This document shows positions 11,077 through 43,092 of a stretch of 44,559 bases of DNA, in pieces (within the stretch, counting starts at the first letter, position 1; the number at the start of each line of letters is the position of its first letter). Position numbers and translations under genes: made by a program. The notes below the pieces were generated by a model. It did not search any database. It had not been told where the DNA came from and saw only the letters and a program-made list of their open reading frames with translations. Origin of the DNA: Escherichia phage SM_A8; sequence record PP920553.1. The stretch is one strand, 5' to 3'.

Positions 11077-11092
11077 ATTGGAGAATACTACA

Positions 11093-11455
11093 ATGGCAAA
11101 AGCACCACTCTTCACACTTGACCCTAAGCCGACCTTTAAGCTGCCGATTGAGATCCCGCGCCCCGGTGAAAACGAACCGGGAAAAATGACGTTTACCGTG
11201 CGCCACCGCCCGATCGACGAATTTTCGCAGACCATGCAGGATACTGAGCGCAAGTTGTCGGAATATGACGACAATGATCCTGACGGCTTTAACGTTATGG
11301 TCGAGGCCATCATGCACGTCGCAGAAGGCTGGAATCTGTCGGACGAATTTAACGCGGAGAACGTCCGCCGCCTGGTGGTCAACTATCCGCGCGCGTTCGG
11401 CGTGTTCCACACGTCGTACTATCTCGAACTGATGGGGTTGCGTGAAAAAAACTAA
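11093..11455 (+). CDS. tail assembly chaperone (lambda G-like)
   Basis: ATG 11093 with GGAGA RBS; acidic ~120-aa protein directly upstream of tape measure region; ends in slippery heptamer. Confidence 0.65.
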   Translation: MAKAPLFTLDPKPTFKLPIEIPRPGENEPGKMTFTVRHRPIDEFSQTMQDTERKLSEYDDNDPDGFNVMVEAIMHVAEGWNLSDEFNAENVRRLVVNYPRAFGVFHTSYYLELMGLREKN

Positions 11456-11769
11456 TTGAGGCGGCGCGACGCTTTTATGGCCCGCCGCCACCCTCCGAAG
11501 ATTTAGCCGCAAGTTTATGGGGTGCGGCCCCCGAAGATGTTTGTCCGCCTGTTGCGCTATGGCCCGACAACGCGAAAGTGGTCGCAGTCTTCACAGATTG
11601 CTCCACGCAATGGCGCACCGGTTTTGGTGGCGCATACGGCATCGACTACGGCGTGCTGGAGTGGTTATTTAAGATGCACGGTATCGAAAACGAGCAGCGC
11701 GCGTTTAAAGATATCAAGCTAATGGAGCGAATCGCGCTTGATGAGATGGCGCAGCAGAACCCCGCATAA
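11093..11769 (+). CDS. tail assembly chaperone frameshift fusion (G-T-like), made by -1 ribosomal frameshift
   Basis: -1 frame is open from 11446 to stop at 11769 and overlaps the G stop; the shift site is A_AAA_AAC at 11446-11452. Confidence 0.55.
11446..11452 (+). promoter_or_regulatory. programmed -1 frameshift slippery heptamer A_AAA_AAC
   Basis: zero-frame codons GAA AAA AAC TAA; the -1 frame has TGA at 11443-11445 and is open from 11446. Confidence 0.6.
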
Positions 11770-11771
11770 TG

Positions 11772-12090
11772 AAGCGGGACAGGCGGGACGTCCCGTTTTG
11801 TCCCGCCTCTGTAAAACTGCATATCTACTCACTTCCACTGCATAAACTCAAAACGGGACAAGCGGGACGTCCCGTTTTGTCACGCCCTGTAAATATGCAT
11901 ACCTATGCAGATTTCGTGCATAAACCAAACGGGACAAAAAGCGGGACAAACAAGGGGCGGGACAAAGCGGGACAGCACCCCAGTCCCGCCAGTGCTGCCG
12001 CGGGGTTTAGCCGATCGGGACAGGCGGGACAAAGCCCAGTCTTTCAGACTAGACGGGGGTCAATGGCCCCCCTCGTCTGAGACTGAATAA
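11772..12090. repeat. GCGGGACA repeat array region, including 173-bp element copy A (11918-12090)
   Basis: at least 10 direct CGGGACA/CGGGACG copies plus inverted GTCCCGCC copies; two ~80-bp tandem units (11772-11917) then a 173-bp element ending in a GC-rich hairpin; colinear copy at 39640-39812. Confidence 0.7.
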
Positions 12091-22267: not shown

Positions 22268-22295
22268 ATATTACACCACTCAACCAGGATTGCAA
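22268..22295 (-). promoter_or_regulatory. sigma70-like promoter for the lipoprotein gene
   Basis: minus-sense TTGCAA-N16-TAATAT; the -35 is part of an 8-mer copy (22292-22299). Confidence 0.4.
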
Positions 22296-22316
22296 CCAAT
22301 TTACGAGGATTTAGCT

Positions 22317-24032
22317 ATGGCAGCGGGTACGCTATCAGTAACGAACAACAGCAAGGCGGTAGTAGGGGTCGGCACGACGTTTACCGCGTTTAAAGCTGGC
22401 GACTTCTTAACGCTGGTGGTAGGACAAGTCCCATACACCGTGGCAATCGCGTCCATTGAAAGCGCAACCGCGCTCACGCTGGTGTTGCCGTTCGACGGCC
22501 CAACGGCAACCGGCCTTGCGTGGGATGGCGTTAAGCGCGACACCATGTCACTGGCGACGATGGGCGTTACCGTACAGGCACAAAAAGCATTGCGCTTGAT
22601 GATCGCAGATGAAAACAACTGGCGTGCAATCTTCGGCGACGCTGAAGAAATCACCGTGACGCTACCTAACGGGCAGGTTATGCAGGGAATGTCATGGGGC
22701 TATCTGTCGTCTTTGCTTAAGAACGTAGACCCAGTTGAGATGCGCGACCTGCAACAGCAAGCCGTAACAGCGAAAAACCAGGCAGTTACGGCTAATGGGC
22801 AAGCGGAAGCGGCACGCGACGCTGCCGTAACAGCGAAAAACCAGGCAGTTACGGCTAAGGGGCAAGCGGAAGCGGCACGCGACGCTGCGAACACGGCTAA
22901 GACTGGCGCGGAGGCGGCCCGCAATCAGGCCGAACAATTCGCTAATAGTGTTAATACTGAAAACCTACTTGCGAAGGCCAACAACTTAAGCGATGTTGCG
23001 GATATGGGTGTAACGCGCGAAAACATTGGCGTAGACCGCCTATCGCAAAACATAACCAGCGGCGAAACACAAATCAGGACTGCGGCGAAGAATAAATGGA
23101 TCTTCGTTAAGGAAAATGGCGACTGGGGCGGGTGGGATAATGCCAACAATAAAGCCATGCCGCTGCCGATTGCATTCGGTGGTACGGGGCGCGGCGATAA
23201 CGTCGCCGAGTTCCGCCAATTCAAATCAAACGGCGACACCCAAGATGGGTTAATCATTACGCAGAACGACAACGGATTCGGTGGTGTGGGCTGGGCCGAT
23301 TCCGCGGATAAAGTACGCTGGCGTATGGGCATCGACGAAGCCTCTGGCCATTTTAAAATATACTCATACGACTCCGCGGGAGCGTATCGAGACACCGTCC
23401 TCGAGATCACCGGAGTAGGAGTCGGTGGCATGGTGTGGTCCCGTGATATTACCGTGCGCCCGACGACGGCAGTTCCTGCGCGGTCTTTCGTTCTAAACAA
23501 CGGAAAAGCTACCGTCCCGGCTGGTAACTTCCGCACGATGTGGGATACGGTTAATATCAATAGTAACCAGATCTATAAATATTTTGAGAAGGGAGACGGC
23601 ACTGGCTTTACAGTCAATTGGCCCTCATCTGGTGGTGTTATTGCCCTCCAGGGTACATCAGGAAGGGACTTTAAGAAAGATATTACCGACGCGGACGTTA
23701 CCGAAGCGGTTGCACGCATTGAACAAATGCGCATGGTGCGCTACGTGTATAAGGACGATGTGAAGGAGCGCGTCCGCTTCGGCATCATTGCCGAAGAAGC
23801 AGAAGAGATTGCGCCTCAATACATCAAACACCGTGAGGAGACGTACGATGTGGAGGTGGACCCCGAGACTAACGCCATCGTCGGGGGTAAGACGCGCGAC
23901 CGTCCGTCGGTGGACGTTAACCCTATCGTGATGGACTTGATGGGGTGCGCACAATATGCGATCGCTGAGTGTAAACGCCTGGCGGCGGAAGTGGAGGATT
24001 TGAAAGCCGAGATCGCGGCGTTGAAGAAATAA
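22317..24032 (+). CDS. tail fiber protein with C-terminal intramolecular chaperone (peptidase S74-like) domain
   Basis: ATG 22317 with GAGGA RBS (track start 22290 is TTG); 63-bp tandem repeat at 22761-22886; C-terminus matches the S74 chaperone pattern (RFGIIAEEAEEIAPQYI ... LAAEVEDLKAEIAALKK). Confidence 0.7.
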   Translation: MAAGTLSVTNNSKAVVGVGTTFTAFKAGDFLTLVVGQVPYTVAIASIESATALTLVLPFDGPTATGLAWDGVKRDTMSLATMGVTVQAQKALRLMIADENNWRAIFGDAEEITVTLPNGQVMQGMSWGYLSSLLKNVDPVEMRDLQQQAVTAKNQAVTANGQAEAARDAAVTAKNQAVTAKGQAEAARDAANTAKTGAEAARNQAEQFANSVNTENLLAKANNLSDVADMGVTRENIGVDRLSQNITSGETQIRTAAKNKWIFVKENGDWGGWDNANNKAMPLPIAFGGTGRGDNVAEFRQFKSNGDTQDGLIITQNDNGFGGVGWADSADKVRWRMGIDEASGHFKIYSYDSAGAYRDTVLEITGVGVGGMVWSRDITVRPTTAVPARSFVLNNGKATVPAGNFRTMWDTVNINSNQIYKYFEKGDGTGFTVNWPSSGGVIALQGTSGRDFKKDITDADVTEAVARIEQMRMVRYVYKDDVKERVRFGIIAEEAEEIAPQYIKHREETYDVEVDPETNAIVGGKTRDRPSVDVNPIVMDLMGCAQYAIAECKRLAAEVEDLKAEIAALKK

Positions 24033-26881: not shown

Positions 26882-27588
26882 TTTAAATTTTCCTCGTTAA
26901 CCGCTATCGCGAAGCCGCGCGGGGTGAGTGAGCGGATTAATTTTGTACGAGCGGATTTACCACCGAGGCGACTATACTGCTTCGAGTACCCTTTTTCAAC
27001 GAAAACAGGTTTCTTCTCGGGCATACGGAAGCCGTTTCCAGTCCATAAGCAGGTCAGCTTCGGATATGAATCGCGGGCGTTGATGTATTCAGGGAAGAGC
27101 GGGTGTACGTCATCCTCTGGCAGATATCCGCCATACTCCCACGGGTCAAACGAGTGGTCCGGCTTACGCCACTGGGTGGAAAGCACGCTGCGCGGATTCT
27201 CAATCATATATGGCACTTCGAAGAAATCACCCAGGTAAGCTGCGATCTTCGCGGTGCGCACCGCCTTAAGCTGGAAGGCAGGGTCGCGGGCGCGTTTGCG
27301 CGGGAAAGCTGGCGCACCGCTAACCGCCAGATCCGTACACGGCGGGAATGCGTAAATGATATCCGGCGTGCCGAAATCGCCATTCATCGCGCGATCCACG
27401 AAGTCCAGGTCGATAAACTCATTACGATAGCGAATGCCGCGGCCATAGATCCGGTAGTCCAGGTAAGACCCGTGATCGGCTTCGGAGTAGTTGAAGCAAT
27501 AACACTTATGCCCCATCTCGGCAGCACGCTCAATCATCAAGCCGCTGCCGTCAAACAATGACCAGATTGTCATTTTAGCAATAGTCAT
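26878..27588 (-). CDS. cytosine-C5 methyltransferase-like protein (short)
   Basis: motif I-like LFDGSGL, motif IV-like FPPCTDLAVSG (PC motif), motif VI-like ENP; only 236 aa so the target recognition region may be minimal. Confidence 0.5.
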   Translation of the reverse strand: MTIAKMTIWSLFDGSGLMIERAAEMGHKCYCFNYSEADHGSYLDYRIYGRGIRYRNEFIDLDFVDRAMNGDFGTPDIIYAFPPCTDLAVSGAPAFPRKRARDPAFQLKAVRTAKIAAYLGDFFEVPYMIENPRSVLSTQWRKPDHSFDPWEYGGYLPEDDVHPLFPEYINARDSYPKLTCLWTGNGFRMPEKKPVFVEKGYSKQYSRLGGKSARTKLIRSLTPRGFAIAVNEENLK

Positions 27589-32951: not shown

Positions 32952-33734
32952 TTAACGGCGGCGACGTTTACGTGGTGCTTCGTCTTCGTCGTCGTCCTCA
33001 TCTTCGTCATCGCGTGGCTTACGACGTTTGCGAGGTTTTTCATCTTCCTCATCGTCGTCGTCATCGCGGCGCTTGGATTTCTTGGACTTGCGCGGCTTGT
33101 CATCTTCATCATCGTCATCACGACGTTTTGACTTTTTGGACTTGCGCGGTGCTTCGTCTTCGTCGTCGTTGTCCAGGTCTTCATCGGAGCAAGAAGACCC
33201 GCCACCTCCGAAGGCTTCGCCGTCTTCACGGAATCGCAGACCCAGCAAGCCAGCACCGAGTCCCTTGCCGTTGGTATTGTTCCACGCCCAAATATCCAGG
33301 GACACATTGCAATAACAACCGGAGTAGATCTCCTGGCCTTCAATCTCGTCGCCGTCGATGGTCAGACCTTGTTCAGTCTGCTTCTCGCCGAGTGACGTTT
33401 GAATGATTGGTTGTTTGAACGATTTGGCGTTGATGTACAACATGCCTTCAAATTCTTCGGTTACTTCGTCACGCTCGTCACCGTCGCGAACTGCGCATTC
33501 CTTAGAATCCTGGGCGTAGTGGCGGTCCATCCACTTATCAGCATTCTTCTCGGATTTCAGCTTGTCGGTGAGCACTGCGCGCGCTGCCGCTTCCACTTTG
33601 TCCACCTGCGGATCTTCTTTATCAAGAAGAATCACTGCACGGTATGCCGGTTTTTGTCCATCCTGTTTAGGGGTATCACGTTCCCAAATTTTAAGGAAAC
33701 ATACGCGCACATTTTTCAGGTTGACTTTAGCCAT
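32952..33734 (-). CDS. hypothetical protein with repetitive charged C-terminal tail (possible ssDNA-binding protein)
   Basis: ATG 33734 with GAGGA RBS; N-terminus MAKVNLKNVRVCF; C-terminal alternating poly-D/E and PRKSKKSKRR blocks from tandem DNA repeats. Confidence 0.5.
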   Translation of the reverse strand: MAKVNLKNVRVCFLKIWERDTPKQDGQKPAYRAVILLDKEDPQVDKVEAAARAVLTDKLKSEKNADKWMDRHYAQDSKECAVRDGDERDEVTEEFEGMLYINAKSFKQPIIQTSLGEKQTEQGLTIDGDEIEGQEIYSGCYCNVSLDIWAWNNTNGKGLGAGLLGLRFREDGEAFGGGGSSCSDEDLDNDDEDEAPRKSKKSKRRDDDDEDDKPRKSKKSKRRDDDDDEEDEKPRKRRKPRDDEDEDDDEDEAPRKRRRR

Positions 33735-35968: not shown

Positions 35969-36484
35969 TTAATCTTCCAGTTCGAAATAGGTTTCGACGA
36001 TTTCTTTTAGCTCTTTGTGGAAGTCTTCGACGTCGTCATCTTCCAGCTTGGCGATTGATTTGATCTCGAACGATTCCAGCAGGTCGTCGAATTCGTCGTT
36101 CGCGTCATCATCATCACCGCCTGCAATAATAGCGGCATACTGCTTGATTTCGTCGCGCATTTCGACCAGCGGATCGGCATCTTTCTTACCTTTGCCTTTC
36201 GCCGGTGCTTTCTTAGCCTTAGCCGGTTTTTCGTCTTCGGCATCGTCGTCGTCATCTTCTACGACTTCTTTTTTAGCCTTACCTTTCGCCGGTGCTTTTT
36301 TAGATTTAGCCGGTTTTTCGTCTTCAGCTTCATCGTCGTCATCTTCGACAACTTCTTTTTTGGCCTTAGACGGCTTCTTGTCTTCCTGCTTACCAACGGC
36401 AGCGCCAACGGTTTCATAATGCTTTGCAATGGTTTCCAGTGCTACTACGCCGCGAGTGATCAGGTTTACGATTTGCTCAAACAT
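35969..36484 (-). CDS. acidic/lysine-rich repeat protein (first gene of leftward early operon)
   Basis: ATG 36484 with GGAGAT RBS; two 29-aa repeats (KKEVVEDDDDEAEDEKPAKSKKAPAKGKA) from an 87-bp tandem DNA repeat; poly-D C-terminal region. Confidence 0.55.
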   Translation of the reverse strand: MFEQIVNLITRGVVALETIAKHYETVGAAVGKQEDKKPSKAKKEVVEDDDDEAEDEKPAKSKKAPAKGKAKKEVVEDDDDDAEDEKPAKAKKAPAKGKGKKDADPLVEMRDEIKQYAAIIAGGDDDDANDEFDDLLESFEIKSIAKLEDDDVEDFHKELKEIVETYFELED

Positions 36485-36679
36485 GGTATATCTCCGATTG
36501 GTTAAGTTTAGGTGTCGGCAGTTAACTTCGTCGGTGGCCTTAACATATTGCCAGGTTACGCGTTCTCCCGTTCGGGTAGTGGACCTGGTTATATAATCAC
36601 GGTTGGGAATCCTGACACTTCGATCCGGCCCCTGCGTTGCCCCTCTCCAGTTTGCGTCCTGCATCCTGTCGACGGAGTG

Positions 36680-36708
36680 AATATTAGATTGGTTGCAGAA
36701 GGGAGTCA
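36680..36708 (-). promoter_or_regulatory. leftward early promoter (P2)
   Basis: minus-sense TTGACT-N17-TAATAT with a GCAACCAA copy in the spacer; about 190 nt upstream of first leftward gene. Confidence 0.5.
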
Positions 36709-36719
36709 ACAACTAATTT

Positions 36720-36885: not shown

Positions 36886-37215
36886 ATGAATATCAAAGAA
36901 GCAATTGAAGTGTTATCTAATGCAATCCGCGGCGAAGCGGGTAAATCCTGGTATTACACAAATGCGGTGGATACTCTGTTATTTGAAGTGTCCAGATTAT
37001 CGCGTGCTGAGAAGGAGCTTACCGCGAAGCTAGAATTGCTCAACGGCACGGCAGCAAGCAAGCTGCAAAAACACAATGAAGAAATGGAAGAATACAAAAA
37101 ACAGGTTATCCGTCTACGTGAGGAAGGTAAATCCTGGGCGATGATCGCCGAGTTGACCGGAATTAATCAGAGCACAGTGCGCTCCTGGGTACGCAATAAT
37201 AAAACTTCAAAGTAA
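36886..37215 (+). CDS. HTH DNA-binding protein (putative transcriptional regulator)
   Basis: 109 aa; C-terminal helix-turn-helix KSWAMIAELTGINQSTVRSWVRN; first gene of rightward operon. Confidence 0.6.
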   Translation: MNIKEAIEVLSNAIRGEAGKSWYYTNAVDTLLFEVSRLSRAEKELTAKLELLNGTAASKLQKHNEEMEEYKKQVIRLREEGKSWAMIAELTGINQSTVRSWVRNNKTSK

Positions 37216-37225
37216 GGCAACGGCA

Positions 37226-39490
37226 ATGAGCTTGATTAAATTCGCTGTAACACGACCCGCTAAAAAAGGCGAAAAAGCCAGGGCGGAAAACTTCCAGATG
37301 ACGACCGAAGAGTTTTTCGAATTTATCAATGATGCGAAAGAAATCTCCTCGGTGCATATCAACAAAACGGAAGATAAAGCGGAGTATGCGCGCCGCAAGC
37401 GTAAGGCTGATGGGATTGTGGCTTATACCAGTGACGGCTTACGCCGCAAGACCAGTGCGGTGGACCGCTCGATCCTGTTCTTCGATATTGACCGTACCGA
37501 CACCCGCACCCTACGCCGCTGCCGTAAGGCTTTCATCGACGCGGGGCTGGAGCACGTATTTCACACCACAACCGGCGACCGCCACCCGCTGAAAGGCGGC
37601 ACGCGTTGCGCTCGTTTCCTGGTGCTCACTGACAAGCCTGTACCGGCGGAAGACCTGGGCCGCGTCCAGTATGCACTATTACACCAACTGGGCCTGTCAG
37701 ATGTGGACTTCGACGATTGCACGAAAGACACAAACCGCCTTATGTACCTGCCTCACCAGCAATCGGTTGTTAAGTGTCACTACGGCAAACGTGCCCGCGT
37801 CCGTCGTCTGCTTCGCCTGGCTGATAAGCTGGGGGTGGAAAAAGAGGAAGTACGCCGCGAGCTTACCCAGGGCGACGACGCAGTGGCAGACGGCATTCTG
37901 GACTGGTGCTTCCAGGCAGGATTCGAACCGCTGTCGTCCGGTCGTGGTTATGAAGTGCCATGCCCGAACGAACACCTGCACAGTGGTGAAGGGTCCACCG
38001 CTATCATGGTTAAGGATGGCGAGATCCGTTTCAAGTGTATGCACACCGGCAACGAGTGTTGCTCGGAACTGAACAGACACCAGCACCTGGCGCTACGTCT
38101 CATCGGGATACCGGACCACCTGAACGTCGAGCCGCACAACATGTCCCGTAAGCAAATCGCCGCCATCCTCCCAGGGCTGGACGACGAGGAAGTCGAATCC
38201 TTATATGAACATATTGTGGATGCGGTTGGCGACGGCGAAGAATACGGCGTGTGCACCGATGCGGATCTGGATAACGAGCCGGTTGCGCTGTTCAGTAAGC
38301 ACGACCCGATCATAGAAGGCCTGGTCAACTTCAAATCGACCTGGTATATGGCTGGCGAGTCGAACATCGGTAAATCGTTCTACGTGCTTGGGCAGATGGG
38401 CGCGGTTGCCGCTGGTATTCCGTTCGGCGGTGCGAAGGTCGTCCAGTCTCATTGCTTCTATTTCGACGCGGAAGGTGGCGAAGCCTCTAACCAGCGCAAA
38501 GAAGCATTGCAGATTAAATATGAGCACGACCTGGACAAGCTGCACATTATAGACCTGCAGTCACGCGGCTGGGATATCACCAGCAAATCAGGCTTGCGCG
38601 AAGTTATCAGCTTTATCAACCGCACCGCTAACGGCGAACCGGTTGGCCTGGTGGCGTTCGACTCACTCAACCAGACTGTTGCGTTGCGGTCCGCGGATGC
38701 TAAACCGTTCGACGAGAACAACGCCAGCGATATGGGTGAAGTGGTCAAAGCGCTGAAGGCCATCGCGGAAAATACAGGTGGCAGTGCGGGCGTCATTCAC
38801 CACCCGGCGAAAGGTGCAAACGGCAGCAGATCCCCCCGCGGGTCCGGCGCGCTGCATGGTGCTGTCGATTCCGCGTTCTTCCTGGAGCAACCGGACGACA
38901 ACCAGCCCGGACAATTGAACCTGTATCATGAGAAGGCACGTAACGGCATTAAGCAAGCGCCGCGCGGCTTCGTCCTGCTCAAGTGCAAGGTTAAGGTGGA
39001 TCTCCGCAAGTCCGAAGCGTTCGAAGCCCACCAGTCCACCAGCACCGGGCCGGACTTCGGCGATGTGGTTGCCGGTTGGGACGTCAAGCCAATTGCCTCC
39101 ACGCCACGCGACGAGACTCTTTACCTCGTACCGGTCGCCCTGGCACCGTTCGCCATCGAACAGGCGAAGGCTGCGGGCAAGGCCGCAGTTAAGGAGGAGA
39201 ACGCCGCAGGCCCGCGCAACGAAAAAGAGAAAGTGCTTTATGCGGCGCTGGAAAAACTGATGGAAGATAACCCGGACCATACCGGATTCAGTAAATCGGC
39301 AATTGTCCGCCAGGCTGGACTAGCGAAAGGTGGCACATCGACGAAGGCAATCGACGATATGGTCGAGCGCGGCGTACTAGGTTTTTACACAGACCCACAC
39401 ACCGGGGCCATCTATGGGTCGTCTAATATCGTCATCAAAACGAATATACCCATCACGCTTTCGGCGACCGATGACGACCTGAAAGATTAA
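37226..39490 (+). CDS. DNA primase / RepA-DnaB-like helicase fusion protein
   Basis: 754 aa; zinc-binding cluster CPNEHLHSGE...CMHTGNECC; Walker A GESNIGKS, Walker B-like LVAFDSLNQ, VIHHPAKG motif. Confidence 0.7.
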   Translation: MSLIKFAVTRPAKKGEKARAENFQMTTEEFFEFINDAKEISSVHINKTEDKAEYARRKRKADGIVAYTSDGLRRKTSAVDRSILFFDIDRTDTRTLRRCRKAFIDAGLEHVFHTTTGDRHPLKGGTRCARFLVLTDKPVPAEDLGRVQYALLHQLGLSDVDFDDCTKDTNRLMYLPHQQSVVKCHYGKRARVRRLLRLADKLGVEKEEVRRELTQGDDAVADGILDWCFQAGFEPLSSGRGYEVPCPNEHLHSGEGSTAIMVKDGEIRFKCMHTGNECCSELNRHQHLALRLIGIPDHLNVEPHNMSRKQIAAILPGLDDEEVESLYEHIVDAVGDGEEYGVCTDADLDNEPVALFSKHDPIIEGLVNFKSTWYMAGESNIGKSFYVLGQMGAVAAGIPFGGAKVVQSHCFYFDAEGGEASNQRKEALQIKYEHDLDKLHIIDLQSRGWDITSKSGLREVISFINRTANGEPVGLVAFDSLNQTVALRSADAKPFDENNASDMGEVVKALKAIAENTGGSAGVIHHPAKGANGSRSPRGSGALHGAVDSAFFLEQPDDNQPGQLNLYHEKARNGIKQAPRGFVLLKCKVKVDLRKSEAFEAHQSTSTGPDFGDVVAGWDVKPIASTPRDETLYLVPVALAPFAIEQAKAAGKAAVKEENAAGPRNEKEKVLYAALEKLMEDNPDHTGFSKSAIVRQAGLAKGGTSTKAIDDMVERGVLGFYTDPHTGAIYGSSNIVIKTNIPITLSATDDDLKD

Positions 39491-39600: not shown

Positions 39601-39639
39601 GTGTAGTGTAAATATATTGAATAGTTATGCAGTTTTATT

Positions 39640-39812
39640 GCATAAAGTAAGCGGGACAAAAAGCGGGACAAACAAGGGGCGGGACAAAGCGGGACAGCAC
39701 CCCTGTCCCGCCACGGATGGCGCGGCTTCCAGAGGAGCGGGACAGGCGGGACAAACCCCAGTCTTTCAGACTAGACGGGGGTCAGTGGCCCCCCTCGTCT
39801 GAGACTGAATAA
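39640..39812. repeat. 173-bp repeat element copy B with GCGGGACA array and GC-rich hairpin
   Basis: colinear with 11918-12090, no indels; CGGGACA copies at identical offsets (12, 24, 40, 50, 98, 107); central ~26 nt diverged. Confidence 0.7.
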
Positions 39813-39967
39813 AATCCGGGGATTGCAAAATACACGGCAGCATGATGCTAAGTGCGGTCGTCGATGAACTAGGCAACCAATGCGGGTTGTATTATGCTGA
39901 GTGAAAAATGCGGTTTGCAGTTGCAGCAGATAGCGATCAACTTTTTCATGCGCGTGATTAATATTGG

Positions 39968-42285: not shown

Positions 42286-42763
42286 CAACGGTCTACGATT
42301 TACGGCAGCATGGGAGCAATTCAGCCCAGTGCCGTATTTTGCGACTAAGAAAGAGCAGGCCCGCGGCCTGTATACCTGGGGCTATGGTCACACCGGCACT
42401 AATCCGCCGCGGAGCATTACCCGTGCGGAAGCACTGGAGCTACTCAAGCGCGACGTGGCGTATGCCGAGAACTGGGTAAACAAGTACGCACACCCGAGCA
42501 TCAACCAGGCGCAATTCGACGCGCTGGTGGACCTGGTTATCAATGCCGGTCCTGGTCCGATCATGCCGGACGACGTCGCCGGAGACTTCGACGATGCGAT
42601 CCGCCTGGGTGACTGGGCAAAGGTCCGTGCTACGCTGCCACAATTCCGCAAGCAAGGCGGGGCAGTGCTCAAGGGGCTTGTCCGTCGTGCAATCGGCAGG
42701 CAGGCACTATTTGATGGTAAGCAGTGGGACGTTGCCGAGAAAATCGGGCGAAACGCCGCATAA
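42272..42763 (+). CDS. endolysin (GH24 lysozyme-like)
   Basis: catalytic Glu context AAWEQF, GYGHTG, ITRAEALELLKRD, INQAQFDALVDLVINAG, GLVRRAIGRQALF match the P22/lambda lysozyme pattern. Confidence 0.8.
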   Translation: MRFSDNGLRFTAAWEQFSPVPYFATKKEQARGLYTWGYGHTGTNPPRSITRAEALELLKRDVAYAENWVNKYAHPSINQAQFDALVDLVINAGPGPIMPDDVAGDFDDAIRLGDWAKVRATLPQFRKQGGAVLKGLVRRAIGRQALFDGKQWDVAEKIGRNAA

Positions 42764-42779
42764 TACGAGGAGACACAGT

Positions 42780-43092
42780 ATGTTAAAAAGCATTCTTGAT
42801 CATAACGCCGACGCGCTCGCCGCGCTGGCTAAAACCGAAGACCCAGGCGCTCGCCGCGCTGGCTAAAACCGAAGACCCAGGCGCTCGCGCCATTATCGCG
42901 GACACTATCAGTCATGCTGGCGTATTTGACGCGAAGCTGCCTAGCCCGCCGCCACAGGCGCTCGCCGCGCTGGCTAAAACCGAAGACCCAGGCGCTCGCG
43001 CCATTATCGCGGACACTATCAGTCATGCTGGCGTATTTGACGCGAAGCTGCCTAGCCCGCCGCCACAGGAAGAATCTGACCCAGTGACGTAA
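42780..43092 (+). pseudogene. repeat-protein gene with apparent frameshift inside tandem repeats
   Basis: ATG 42780 with GAGGAG RBS reads 28 codons to TAA 42864-42866; the rest (two 111-bp repeat units ending at TAA 43090-43092) continues in the +1 frame; one 36-bp sub-repeat copy is 2 nt short. Confidence 0.4.

What the first reader, a model, noticed from the sequence alone, without database searches (positions are those of the whole stretch)
11772..12090. Dense GCGGGACA array and 173-bp element between chaperone and tape measure genes
About 320 bp contains at least 10 direct CGGGACA/CGGGACG copies plus inverted GTCCCGCC copies, including the palindromic core GGGACGTCCC. It is organised as two ~80-bp tandem units (11772-11917) followed by a 173-bp element (11918-12090) ending in a GC-rich imperfect hairpin (AGACGGGGGTCAATGGCCCCCCTCGTCT) with no T tract. 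A colinear copy of the 173-bp element lies 27.7 kb away at 39640-39812. The track ORF 11769..12080 is probably a translation artefact of the repeats. Such an iteron-like array inside the tail module is unusual; it could be a protein-binding array (replication, packaging or late activator), an RNA element, or a recombination substrate.
Basis: seen in the sequence. Interest (0 to 1): 0.75.

Follow-up and report, generated by a model that had tools for sequence, protein, structure and literature searches.

The report
Second replication-origin iteron array in tail genes
The repeat-dense stretch between the tail chaperone and tape measure genes of this E. coli Dhillonvirus is most likely a second copy of the phage's replication-origin binding-site array for its own primase-helicase; that origin design turns out to be shared, with different repeat sequences, by many otherwise unrelated phages.

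Summary
Window 11772-12090 holds 10 direct and 3-4 inverted CGGGAC(A/G) copies, two 79-bp tandem units and a ~200-bp element repeated at 39606-39815 (88% identity). That element ends in a GC hairpin with no T tract. The window is a Dhillonvirus, and all 158 related phage records carry the element, typically twice.

The motif marks a replication module. In dozens of unrelated viral contigs a CGGGACA array starts 0-110 bp after the stop codon of a RepA-like primase-helicase gene, followed by an iteron-armed palindrome. Homologues chosen by protein alone show the same layout with other heptamers (CCGGACA, CGTAACA, TGCAACA, TCCGACA and more). Proteins over 90% identical in the body but with different iterons differ sharply in the last ~100 residues. 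In the window protein those residues model as a winged helix.

Copy B (39640-39812) is therefore the gene-adjacent origin. The flagged region A is a conserved distal second copy plus two 2+2 iteron palindromes. Eiauvirus and one uncultured lineage also keep two copies, each with its own iteron.

I found no support for an RNA, terminator, packaging site or coding ORF. This is a new variant of a known kind (SaPI Rep/ori-like and P4 ori/crr-like). Binding and origin activity are inferred, not shown.

The parts
11774..11806 (+). Region A, palindrome 1: two direct iterons (11775-11781, 11784-11790) and two inverted iterons (11789-11795, 11799-11805). It begins 5 nt after the stop codon (11767-11769) of the tail-chaperone DUF1799 frame.
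   Evidence: DNA hairpin -12.9 kcal/mol, z = -3.2. The same 2+2 layout is seen in other lineages.
11808..11852 (.). AT-rich spacer 1 (64% AT vs 45.5% for the genome) with TGCATA at 11818 and TGCATAA at 11839. It is flanked by inverted iterons on the left and direct iterons on the right.
11853..11886 (+). Region A, palindrome 2: direct iterons 11854-11860 and 11863-11869, inverted iteron 11868-11874, and a degenerate TGTCACG. It is the tandem copy of palindrome 1, 79 bp away.
   Evidence: (D8)
11887..11928 (.). AT-rich spacer 2 (64% AT) with the inverted repeat TATGCA-N7-TGCATA (11904-11922). This is the start of the stretch duplicated at copy B.
11929..11990 (+). Four direct GCGGGACA iterons (11930, 11942, 11958, 11968) and one degenerate inverted iteron (AGTCCCGCC, 11982-11990).
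   Evidence: The iterons are near-invariant across 32 A/B copies while the spacers vary.
11991..12014 (.). Copy-A-specific core (CAGTGCTGCCGCGGGGTTTAGCCGAT). It is conserved among A copies and differs from the B-type core.
12015..12031 (+). Two direct iterons (12016-12022, 12025-12031).
12037..12085 (.). GC-rich imperfect hairpin or cruciform (CAGTCT..AGACGGGGG-loop-CCCCCCTCGTCT..AGACTG) with no T tract. Stems are invariant and the loop is variable.
   Evidence: A homologous hairpin is present in eiAU-183 region A.
11769..12080 (+). Mechanical ORF (103 aa) across the repeats; not a gene.
   Evidence: Frame-breaking 1-nt indels between A copies of related phages. It is annotated inconsistently across records.
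37226..39490 (+). Primase-helicase, 754 aa: AEP-like N-terminus (DxD at residues 87/89), a Cys/His zinc motif, a RepA-like helicase domain (AAA_25) and a C-terminal winged helix (about residues 666-737). It is the proposed iteron-binding initiator.
39606..39650 (.). Copy B AT-rich segment (78% AT) with TTATGCA-N7-TGCATAA (39625-39645). The GAATAGTTATGCA box is shared with Cornellvirus.
39651..39753 (+). Copy B iterons: four direct (39652, 39664, 39680, 39690), one inverted (39704-39710), a B-specific core, and two direct (39738, 39747).
39759..39807 (.). Copy B GC-rich hairpin.
   Evidence: -13.4 kcal/mol, z = -3.7

Best explanation
Region A is a second, distal copy of the phage's replication-origin module.

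The 7-bp CGGGACA units are iterons. They are double-stranded DNA sites recognised by the C-terminal winged-helix domain of the phage's own AEP-primase/RepA-like helicase (window 37226-39490). The ancestral site is copy B, which lies just downstream of that gene.

Inferred mechanism: initiator-helicase subunits are recruited by the iterons and assemble around the adjacent AT-rich segments. In region A these segments are bracketed by oppositely oriented iterons. The DNA is then melted, the helicase loads itself and the fused primase primes. The GC-rich hairpin may extrude from unwound DNA as a loading or priming signal.

Region A therefore acts either as a second origin or as a cis-acting partner of copy B, like P4 crr. 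It sits in a non-coding gap that late transcription probably reads through.

Shown here: the sequence anatomy, its conservation, the linkage of array to gene across phages, the co-variation of iteron with the C-terminal domain, and the winged-helix fold prediction. Inferred: actual binding, melting, origin firing, and whether A and B cooperate.
For: 1. Both copies are conserved across the genus. All 158 related phage records match at >=80% coverage, with 369 places in total. Iterons are near-invariant while spacers drift, including in the divergent lineages L033 and L224/L225.

2. A scan of IMG/VR for three spaced CGGGACA copies returned >=120 loci, only 6 of them Dhillonvirus. The commonest neighbouring protein, found in 49 loci at a median distance of 13 bp, is an AAA_25 primase-helicase; this cluster includes the Dhillonvirus protein. 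The arrays start about -20 to +110 bp from its stop codon, are co-oriented with the gene, and are followed by a [2 direct]-GC core-[2 inverted] palindrome.

3. A sample chosen without reference to the motif gave 80 loci by protein similarity. Of 76 with enough downstream DNA, 40 have >=4 CGGGAC copies at the stop codon. Nearly all of the rest show the same architecture with a different heptamer: CCGGACA, GGGGACA, GGAGACA, CCAGACA, CGTGACA, CGCAACA, CGTAACA, TGCAACA, TCCGACA or CGAAACA.

4. Specificity maps to the C-terminus. Among protein pairs >=90% identical over the body, pairs with the same iteron are 73-100% identical in the C-terminus (median 94, n=101). Pairs with different iterons are 25-62% identical there (median 54, n=18). 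These include two independent swaps, CGTAACA/TGCAACA and CGGGACA/TCCGACA.

6. Closer relatives tell the same story. Cornellvirus FSL SP-031 (protein 44% identical) has GGGGAGA x6 plus 1 inverted after the gene, preceded by the same GAATAGTTATGCA box. Eiauvirus has CGCCCCG clusters both after the helicase-primase gene and between the chaperone and the tape measure gene, with a 52-bp 88% A/B duplicate and a homologous hairpin. The uncultured lineage L235 (49% identical) has ACTCGCAA 2+2 palindromes after the gene and again about 9.8 kb away in the head module.

7. The layout matches the experimentally characterised SaPI Rep/ori design: iterons immediately 3' of rep, a C-terminal winged-helix domain that reads them, an AT-rich centre, and opposed iterons (paper PMC9371898).
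Against: - No experiment shows binding or origin activity for any member of this family.
- The C-terminal-swap evidence comes from a distant branch. It shares only the helicase core and a weakly conserved C-terminal region with the Dhillonvirus protein (23-30% identity over about 230 aa).
- In Dhillonvirus the array starts about 160 bp after the stop codon, and the terminal hairpin lacks iteron arms, so its architecture is derived.
- Cornellvirus manages with one copy and Kagunavirus has no array after the gene, so a second copy is not universally needed.
- GC skew follows gene orientation and says nothing about origins.
Confidence: 0.65

Rival explanations
1. The element acts as RNA. Options are a small RNA or 3'-UTR/leader element made from the TGCATAAA-like promoter and ending at the GC hairpin (for example a protein sponge with repeated GGGACA motifs), or an attenuator or processing site that tunes tape-measure expression.
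For: All direct repeats are in the sense orientation of the flanking genes. A weak promoter-like TTGAAT-N18-CATAAA precedes copy B, and a stable hairpin closes both copies. Region A must be transcribed to express the downstream tail genes, since no promoter was found before the TMP gene.
Against: - No Rfam family and no tRNA or tmRNA match.
- The consensus scans found no sigma-70 promoter at the element and no T tract after the hairpin.
- RNAalifold on 22 copies gives a covariation term of +0.15, and only 1 of 33 predicted pairs shows a compensatory (both-sides) change.
- Inverted copies and 2+2 palindromes are typical of double-stranded DNA sites.
- Across phages the heptamer changes together with a winged-helix domain of the adjacent protein.
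Confidence: 0.1
2. The arrays are packaging signals, that is terminase small-subunit binding sites of the cosB or pac type.
For: Four records (PTXU06, Zar3M, WFI, PEC9) end about 110 bp downstream of copy B. The eiAU-183 record is broken inside its region A. In about 11 unrelated contigs a small-terminase-like gene lies about 1 kb from the array.
Against: - The tight linkage is to the primase-helicase stop codon (median 13 bp), not to terS.
- In this window terS (23-595) is 4.7 kb from copy B and 11 kb from region A.
- The record ends are not independent: three come from one laboratory, and the abstract of the PEC9 paper mentions PTXU06, so its record may have been oriented on it. Other records are cut elsewhere, and a PhageTerm cos call for EE09 falls elsewhere too.
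- Repeats of about 200 bp also break assemblies.
- The iteron co-varies with the helicase C-terminus.
Confidence: 0.06
3. The iterons are operator or enhancer sites for a different phage DNA-binding protein that controls transcription, for example the 109-aa HTH protein at 36886-37215. In that case region A regulates distal late genes.
For: An HTH gene precedes the helicase-primase gene in Dhillonvirus and its relatives. Region A lies just upstream of the TMP gene. A second motif, ATTGGTTGC, shows that the phage has at least one other site-specific binder.
Against: The canonical family keeps the array at the helicase stop codon. The iteron switches exactly when the helicase C-terminal domain is swapped, in otherwise 91-98% identical proteins. 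CGGGACA occurs only at A and B and not at other intergenic regions, unlike ATTGGTTGC.
Confidence: 0.1
4. Region A is a functionless duplication or selfish repeat, or merely a substrate for recombination between A and B.
For: The A and B copies share patchy variants (8- vs 9-bp spacing of the last two iterons) in discordant combinations. This suggests occasional exchange between copies.
Against: Region A is retained in all 158 records, with A-specific and B-specific cores each conserved. Two-copy designs with lineage-specific iterons occur in Eiauvirus and in L235. Iterons are conserved more strongly than spacers.
Confidence: 0.07

Closest known systems
SaPI Rep/ori (self-loading initiator-helicases of Staphylococcus aureus pathogenicity islands)
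   Same: The origin lies immediately downstream of the rep/helicase gene and holds 6-12 short (5-6 bp) iterons. A C-terminal winged-helix domain reads the iterons and sets specificity. There is an AT-rich segment with opposed iterons on each side, and the primase may be fused (PriRep5). No loader is needed (PMC9371898).
   Different: - The helicase here is RecA-fold and RepA-like (AAA_25), not an AAA+ MCM-like helicase.
- The iterons are 7-8 bp.
- The canonical module ends in a GC-core palindrome rather than being split by a central AT tract.
- The hosts are tailed phages, not satellites.
- Dhillonvirus has a second copy 27.7 kb away.
- Nothing here has been tested biochemically.
Satellite phage P4 alpha protein with ori and crr (from my own knowledge: Flensburg & Calendar 1987; Ziegelin et al. 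1993; Yeo et al. 2002)
   Same: One polypeptide combines primase, helicase and a C-terminal winged-helix origin binder. Two separated clusters of the same short repeat lie kilobases apart on one genome.
   Different: P4 alpha has a different primase and an SF3 helicase, with no Pfam or sequence match here. The P4 repeat is TGTTCACC. Whether A and B are both required in cis is unknown. I could not retrieve a paper on crr in the library.
IncQ plasmid RSF1010 oriV with RepA, RepB' and RepC
   Same: The helicase domain is the closest structural match to RSF1010 RepA (1nlf and 1g8y; target-normalised TM-score 0.67-0.70). An AEP-type primase works with it. The origin combines iterons with GC-rich hairpins, as with ssiA and ssiB (the hairpin comparison is from my own knowledge).
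   Different: In RSF1010 the iterons are 20 bp and are bound by a separate RepC protein, primase and helicase are separate proteins, and two ssi hairpins lie on opposite strands. Here there is one fused protein and one hairpin per copy.
GenBank annotation of Sodalis phage SO-1 (NC_013600): repeat_region 'region A' and 'region B'
   Same: These are the same two loci. They were already noted as direct, inverted and palindromic repeats with mutual similarity.
   Different: This is an annotation only. It gives no link to the primase-helicase, no comparative evidence, and I found no publication on it.

Membership tests
Iteron origin of a self-loading initiator-helicase (SaPI Rep/ori type) | Multiple short iterons immediately downstream of the initiator-helicase gene | tested here: met
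   Copy B: 6 direct and 1 inverted CGGGACA at 162-263 bp after the stop at 39490. In the canonical relatives the arrays start 0-110 bp after the stop. Region A itself is distal and is not gene-adjacent.
Iteron origin of a self-loading initiator-helicase (SaPI Rep/ori type) | C-terminal winged-helix domain that determines iteron specificity | tested here: met
Iteron origin of a self-loading initiator-helicase (SaPI Rep/ori type) | AT-rich segment flanked by at least two iterons on each side pointing in opposite directions | tested here: inconclusive
   Region A has two 64%-AT spacers, each bracketed by inverted and direct iterons. Copy B has a 78%-AT segment with iterons on one side only.
Iteron origin of a self-loading initiator-helicase (SaPI Rep/ori type) | Helicase homologous to SaPI Rep (AAA+ / MCM-like) | tested here: not met
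   The Pfam hit is AAA_25 and the best structural matches are RSF1010 RepA and RecA-fold proteins. So the system works like a SaPI origin but is not a homologous family member.
Iteron origin of a self-loading initiator-helicase (SaPI Rep/ori type) | Specific binding, melting and origin activity demonstrated | not testable with these tools
   Needs EMSA or footprinting, ori-plasmid assays, and marker-frequency analysis.
P4 ori/crr two-site origin | Two separated clusters of the same iteron on one genome | tested here: met
   Region A at 11775-12031 and copy B at 39652-39753, 27.7 kb apart. Also found in Eiauvirus and in L235.
P4 ori/crr two-site origin | Both sites required in cis for replication | not testable with these tools
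   Requires a deletion analysis.
P4 ori/crr two-site origin | Initiator homologous to P4 alpha | tested here: not met
   No P4-type primase or helicase family was hit. phmmer against PDB sequences found only a marginal RepA match.
IncQ (RSF1010) oriV | RepA-type hexameric helicase | tested here: met
   AAA_25 at 6e-19. Foldseek to 1nlf and 1g8y at E about 1e-10.
IncQ (RSF1010) oriV | 20-bp iterons bound by a separate RepC, and paired ssiA/ssiB hairpins on opposite strands | tested here: not met
   The iterons are 7-8 bp, no RepC-like gene was seen among the proteins scanned near copy B, and there is one hairpin per copy in one orientation.
Structured non-coding RNA (Rfam family, or CsrB-like sponge) | Match to a curated RNA family, or a conserved structure supported by covariation | tested here: not met
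   0 Rfam hits at gathering threshold. RNAalifold covariation term +0.15, and 1 of 33 predicted pairs shows a compensatory change.
Intrinsic terminator | GC-rich hairpin followed by a T tract | tested here: not met
   The hairpin is present, but it is followed by GAATAAGG or GAATAAAA. The scan reports no + strand terminator there.
cos/pac packaging site | Located at or next to the virion DNA termini or the terminase genes, and bound by TerS | tested here: inconclusive
   Some records end about 110 bp from copy B, but terS is 4.7 kb away and the ends are not independent. No read data are available.

The most novel reading that the evidence does not exclude
The Dhillonvirus pair is the visible tip of a previously undescribed, widespread phage origin module. 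Its parts are an AEP-primase/RepA-helicase/winged-helix fusion protein, heptamer iterons, most ending in ...ACA, that start at the gene's own stop codon, and an iteron-armed GC hairpin that may act as a single-strand priming site. In several siphophage lineages the module has been duplicated into the late or structural operon and both copies are maintained. That would imply an obligatory two-site mechanism: crr-like looping or handcuffing, dual origins that drive the switch to concatemer synthesis, or coupling of fork or helicase loading to late-gene expression.
Probability: 0.25. Interest if true: 0.75.

Novelty: new variant of a known kind. Interest (0 to 1): 0.6.

Why it matters
Replication origins are unknown for most lytic coliphages, including those now used as model collections (BASEL) and in therapy.

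This analysis gives a concrete, testable origin assignment for a whole genus, with two sites and a named binding domain. It also gives a simple rule that predicts origins and initiator specificity in hundreds of uncultured phage genomes: read the repeated heptamer at the stop codon of the RepA-like primase-helicase gene.

The natural C-terminal domain swaps paired with iteron switches form a ready-made recognition code for a winged-helix initiator. They could also guide the engineering of orthogonal phage replicons.

The recurrent second copy inside structural operons raises a mechanistic question about why one origin is not enough.

Tried and rejected
- **RNA families and tRNAs:** the Rfam gathering scan and ARAGORN found nothing.
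- **Promoter and terminator scans of both loci:** no convincing promoter or + strand terminator. TGCATAA is only mildly enriched, 12 hits vs 5.9 expected. It is better read as an inverted repeat in the AT-rich segment than as a -10 box.
- **RNA covariation:** none.
- **GC skew:** it tracks gene orientation only.
- **Literature:** nothing on GCGGGACA, Dhillonvirus promoters or origins, HK578, SO-1 repeats, a phage 16-3 origin or P4 crr. The NrS-1 prim-pol recognition sequence is TTTGGTTA/GTG, not this motif.
- **Failed scans:** A hand-made degenerate DNA pattern returned 0 hits in the collection although it matches 16 held loci locally, so I treat that as a limit of the tool.
- **A possible link to separate replication proteins:** phmmer of the window helicase-primase against the separate winged-helix-like replication proteins (the 'ITVCNYDKYQ' group, which carry CGGGACA copies inside their own gene) found no hit.
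- **Genome termini:** EE09's PhageTerm cos sequence is absent from the window apart from 1-2-mismatch chance-level hits. Record ends near copy B were judged weak evidence.
- **Kagunavirus (RP180, K1G):** no array after the helicase-primase gene.

Full report
**What is there.** The window is a Dhillonvirus, an HK578-like E. coli siphophage. A 461-bp query across the finding matches 158 phage records, 152 of them over at least 80% of its length.

Ten direct CGGGAC(A/G) copies and three exact inverted copies, plus one degenerate inverted copy, lie in 11775-12031. Seven more copies lie in 39652-39753. Only eight other hits occur in the remaining 44 kb. The window total is 28 against 15.8 +/- 3.7 in shuffles.

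Two 79-bp-spaced units are each built around a 2-direct/2-inverted iteron palindrome: 11772-11807 and 11851-11886. After them comes a stretch of about 200 bp that is repeated colinearly at 39606-39815 with 88% identity. Each copy ends in a GC-rich hairpin (-13.4 kcal/mol as DNA, z about -4) with no T tract.

ORF 11769-12080 is not a gene. Region A copies from different phages differ by several single-nucleotide indels.

**Context.** Region A begins 5 nt after the stop codon of the DUF1799 frame of the tail assembly chaperone, and it ends 64 nt before the tape measure gene.

Copy B lies 116 bp after the stop of a 754-aa 'replicative helicase-primase' (37226-39490; Pfam AAA_25; PHROG 3228). It sits inside a 530-bp non-coding region that also carries six ATTGGTTGC copies.

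The GenBank record of Sodalis phage SO-1 already marks both loci as 'region A' and 'region B' repeat regions with mutual similarity. It gives no functional evidence, and I found no paper on them.

**The decisive lead.** I scanned IMG/VR for three closely spaced CGGGACA copies. The scan returned at least 120 loci, of which only six are Dhillonvirus. Many show a common design: 3-7 direct copies, then a palindrome of two direct iterons, a CCCC-T(A/T)(A/T)AG-GGGG core, and two inverted iterons.

I clustered all ORFs within 3.5 kb of these arrays. The dominant neighbour, in 49 loci at a median distance of 13 bp, is an AAA_25 primase-helicase, and this cluster includes the Dhillonvirus protein. The arrays begin between about -20 and +110 bp from that gene's stop codon and point the same way as the gene.

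**A motif-blind control.** I aligned six of these proteins and retrieved 80 loci by protein similarity alone. Of 76 with enough downstream DNA, 40 carry at least four CGGGAC copies at the stop codon.

Nearly all of the others show the same architecture built from a different heptamer: CCGGACA, GGGGACA, GGAGACA, CCAGACA, CGTGACA, CGCAACA, CGTAACA, TGCAACA, TCCGACA, CGAAACA or ACGGACA. All of these keep the 3' ...ACA.

This is the pattern expected when an initiator and its iterons co-evolve. It is not expected for a host-factor site or a generic structural signal.

**Which part of the protein reads the repeat.** I compared protein pairs that are at least 90% identical over everything except the last ~105 residues.

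| Iteron core in the pair | n pairs | C-terminal identity, range | C-terminal identity, median |
|---|---|---|---|
| Same | 101 | 73-100% | 94% |
| Different | 18 | 25-62% | 54% |

The different-iteron pairs include two independent domain swaps. One is CGTAACA vs TGCAACA (body 93-98%, C-terminus 54-62%). The other is CGGGACA vs TCCGACA (body 91-96%, C-terminus 25%).

A 20-sequence alignment that includes the window protein shows a conserved C-terminal block, with near-invariant R695, R707 and L712 in window numbering.

AlphaFold models of the window protein show four parts:
- an AEP-like N-terminal domain (invariant DxD at residues 87/89);
- a Cys/His zinc motif;
- a helicase core whose best PDB matches are RSF1010 RepA entries 1nlf and 1g8y;

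**Closer relatives of the Dhillonvirus protein.**
- Cornellvirus FSL SP-031 (44% identity) has six direct and one inverted GGGGAGA right after the gene. They are preceded by the same GAATAGTTATGCA box as in Dhillonvirus. It has no second copy near its tape measure gene.
- Edwardsiella phage eiAU-183 has CGCCCCG clusters after the helicase-primase gene and also between the chaperone and the tape measure gene. The two share a 52-bp 88% duplicate, and region A carries a hairpin homologous to the Dhillonvirus one.
- An uncultured 40-kb phage (protein 49% identical) has ACTCGCAA 2+2 palindromes after the gene. A clearly homologous second copy lies 9.8 kb away, after a head-morphogenesis gene.
- Two other relatives have yet other repeats in the same gap.
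- Kagunaviruses have none there.
- Cultured Rhizobium phage 16-3 has a textbook canonical module with GCGTGACA after p101.

So the second, distal copy recurs in at least three lineages, always with the lineage's own iteron. It is not universal.

**Within the genus.** In 32 A and B copies from 16 genomes the iterons are near-invariant while the spacers drift. The 26-nt cores are A-specific or B-specific and are each conserved, so there is no wholesale concerted evolution. The spacing variant of the last two iterons (8 vs 9 bp) occurs in discordant A/B combinations, which suggests occasional exchange. The hairpin stems are invariant and the loops vary.

**Interpretation.** The best-supported reading is that CGGGACA units are double-stranded DNA iterons for the winged-helix domain of the phage's self-loading primase-helicase. 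Copy B is the gene-adjacent origin. Region A is a conserved second origin-type site.

Region A in fact has the more 'origin-like' geometry. It holds two 64%-AT spacers (genome 45.5% AT), each bracketed by inverted and direct iterons. This is the arrangement reported for SaPI origins (PMC9371898).

Whether A fires as an origin, or cooperates with B as crr does with ori in P4 (my recollection; no paper retrievable), cannot be decided here. Binding, melting and priming are inferred.

**Rivals.**
- An RNA element is not supported: no Rfam hit, no covariation, no canonical promoter or terminator, and palindromic site organisation.
- A packaging site is unlikely. The linkage is to the helicase gene rather than to terS, and the record ends near copy B are few and not independent.
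- A different reader protein, such as the upstream HTH, cannot be excluded for Dhillonvirus itself. It is disfavoured by the C-terminal swap data from the wider family.
- A functionless duplication is contradicted by retention in 158 of 158 records and by parallel two-copy designs elsewhere.

**Novelty and score.** The kind is known: an iteron origin read by a winged-helix domain of a self-loading initiator-helicase, sited next to its gene (SaPI, P4). The new points are:
- the protein chassis (AEP primase plus RepA-like RecA-fold helicase);
- the heptamer-plus-GC-palindrome layout;
- the breadth of the family, with about 480 relatives in one scan;
- the natural specificity swaps;
- the maintained second copy inside structural operons.

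I rate it a new variant of a known kind, with interest 0.6. It is a useful and readily testable origin assignment rather than a categorically new system.

Noticed in passing
window 39502, 39556, 39591, 39873(-), 39963, 39994; also 6196(-), 22292(-), 26532(-), 26549(-), 29506(-), 36688, 40528(-), 43159(-): A second motif, ATTGGTTGC, has 14 exact copies (28 allowing one mismatch vs 12 expected). Six of them flank copy B, and others sit in pairs near gene boundaries. In eiAU-183, TGGTTGC occurs 31 times, clustered after the helicase-primase gene and in its region A. It resembles the NrS-1 prim-pol recognition sequence TTTGGTTA (PMC8718748). It may be an operator, a promoter element or a priming site.
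   Followed up: partly
window ~39922: Four GenBank records (PTXU06, Zar3M, WFI, PEC9) end at the same point about 110 bp downstream of copy B. Other records (PNS1, Maverick, eiAU-183) are broken inside region A. This could be a real terminus, but more likely reflects assembly breaks or re-orientation on a reference.
   Followed up: partly
L016, L018, L027, L031, L048, L086, L092, L095, L112, L115, L117 (IMG/VR loci): Fifteen contigs carry CGGGACA copies inside the coding region of a winged-helix-like replication protein (motif '...ITVCNYDKYQ'), which resembles the lambda O gene with its internal ori. In three of them (L018, L027, L048) this gene directly follows a shorter primase-helicase, suggesting split and fused versions of the same module.
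   Followed up: partly
L234 (Rhizobium phage 16-3, record 56249-56620): A cultured temperate phage has at least 8 direct and at least 6 inverted GCGTGACA copies and a terminal iteron-armed GC palindrome straight after the p101 primase/RecA-family ATPase gene. I found no literature on its origin.
   Followed up: partly
window 39612-39631 and L206 13783-13815: The box GAATAGTTATGCA just upstream of the iteron array is conserved between Dhillonvirus and Cornellvirus although their iterons differ. It forms an inverted repeat with TGCATAA. It may be a DNA-unwinding element or a site for a conserved or host factor.
   Followed up: no
window 11430-11770: The tail chaperone ORF (11078-11455, Phage_TAC_4) ends at an A-rich run (GTGAAAAAAACTAA). 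The DUF1799 frame continues to 11769 in the -1 frame, which looks like a lambda G/GT-type programmed frameshift.
   Followed up: no
window 42813-43056: A 111-bp tandem duplication (96% identity) with an embedded 42-nt triple repeat lies in the region of ORFs 42796-43092 and 42543-42866.
   Followed up: no
window 22761-22886: A 63-bp tandem duplication (98% identity) lies inside the 580-aa ORF 22290-24032; the syntenic SO-1 gene (gp25) is annotated as a tail fiber protein.
   Followed up: no
window 32968-33186 and 36075-36377 (- strand genes): Imperfect repeats encode acidic and basic low-complexity tails. They lie in the Enc34-type ssDNA-binding protein gene and in the 247-aa ORF 35969-36712.
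   Followed up: no
window 27263-27272 (-): By my rough coordinate mapping (not checked by alignment), the PhageTerm 'COS 5'' sequence reported for Dhillonvirus EE09 (ATCTTAAGGG) falls near window 27.1 kb, inside a replication-module gene, where the only match has 2 mismatches. That cos call is probably not a conserved terminus.
   Followed up: partly
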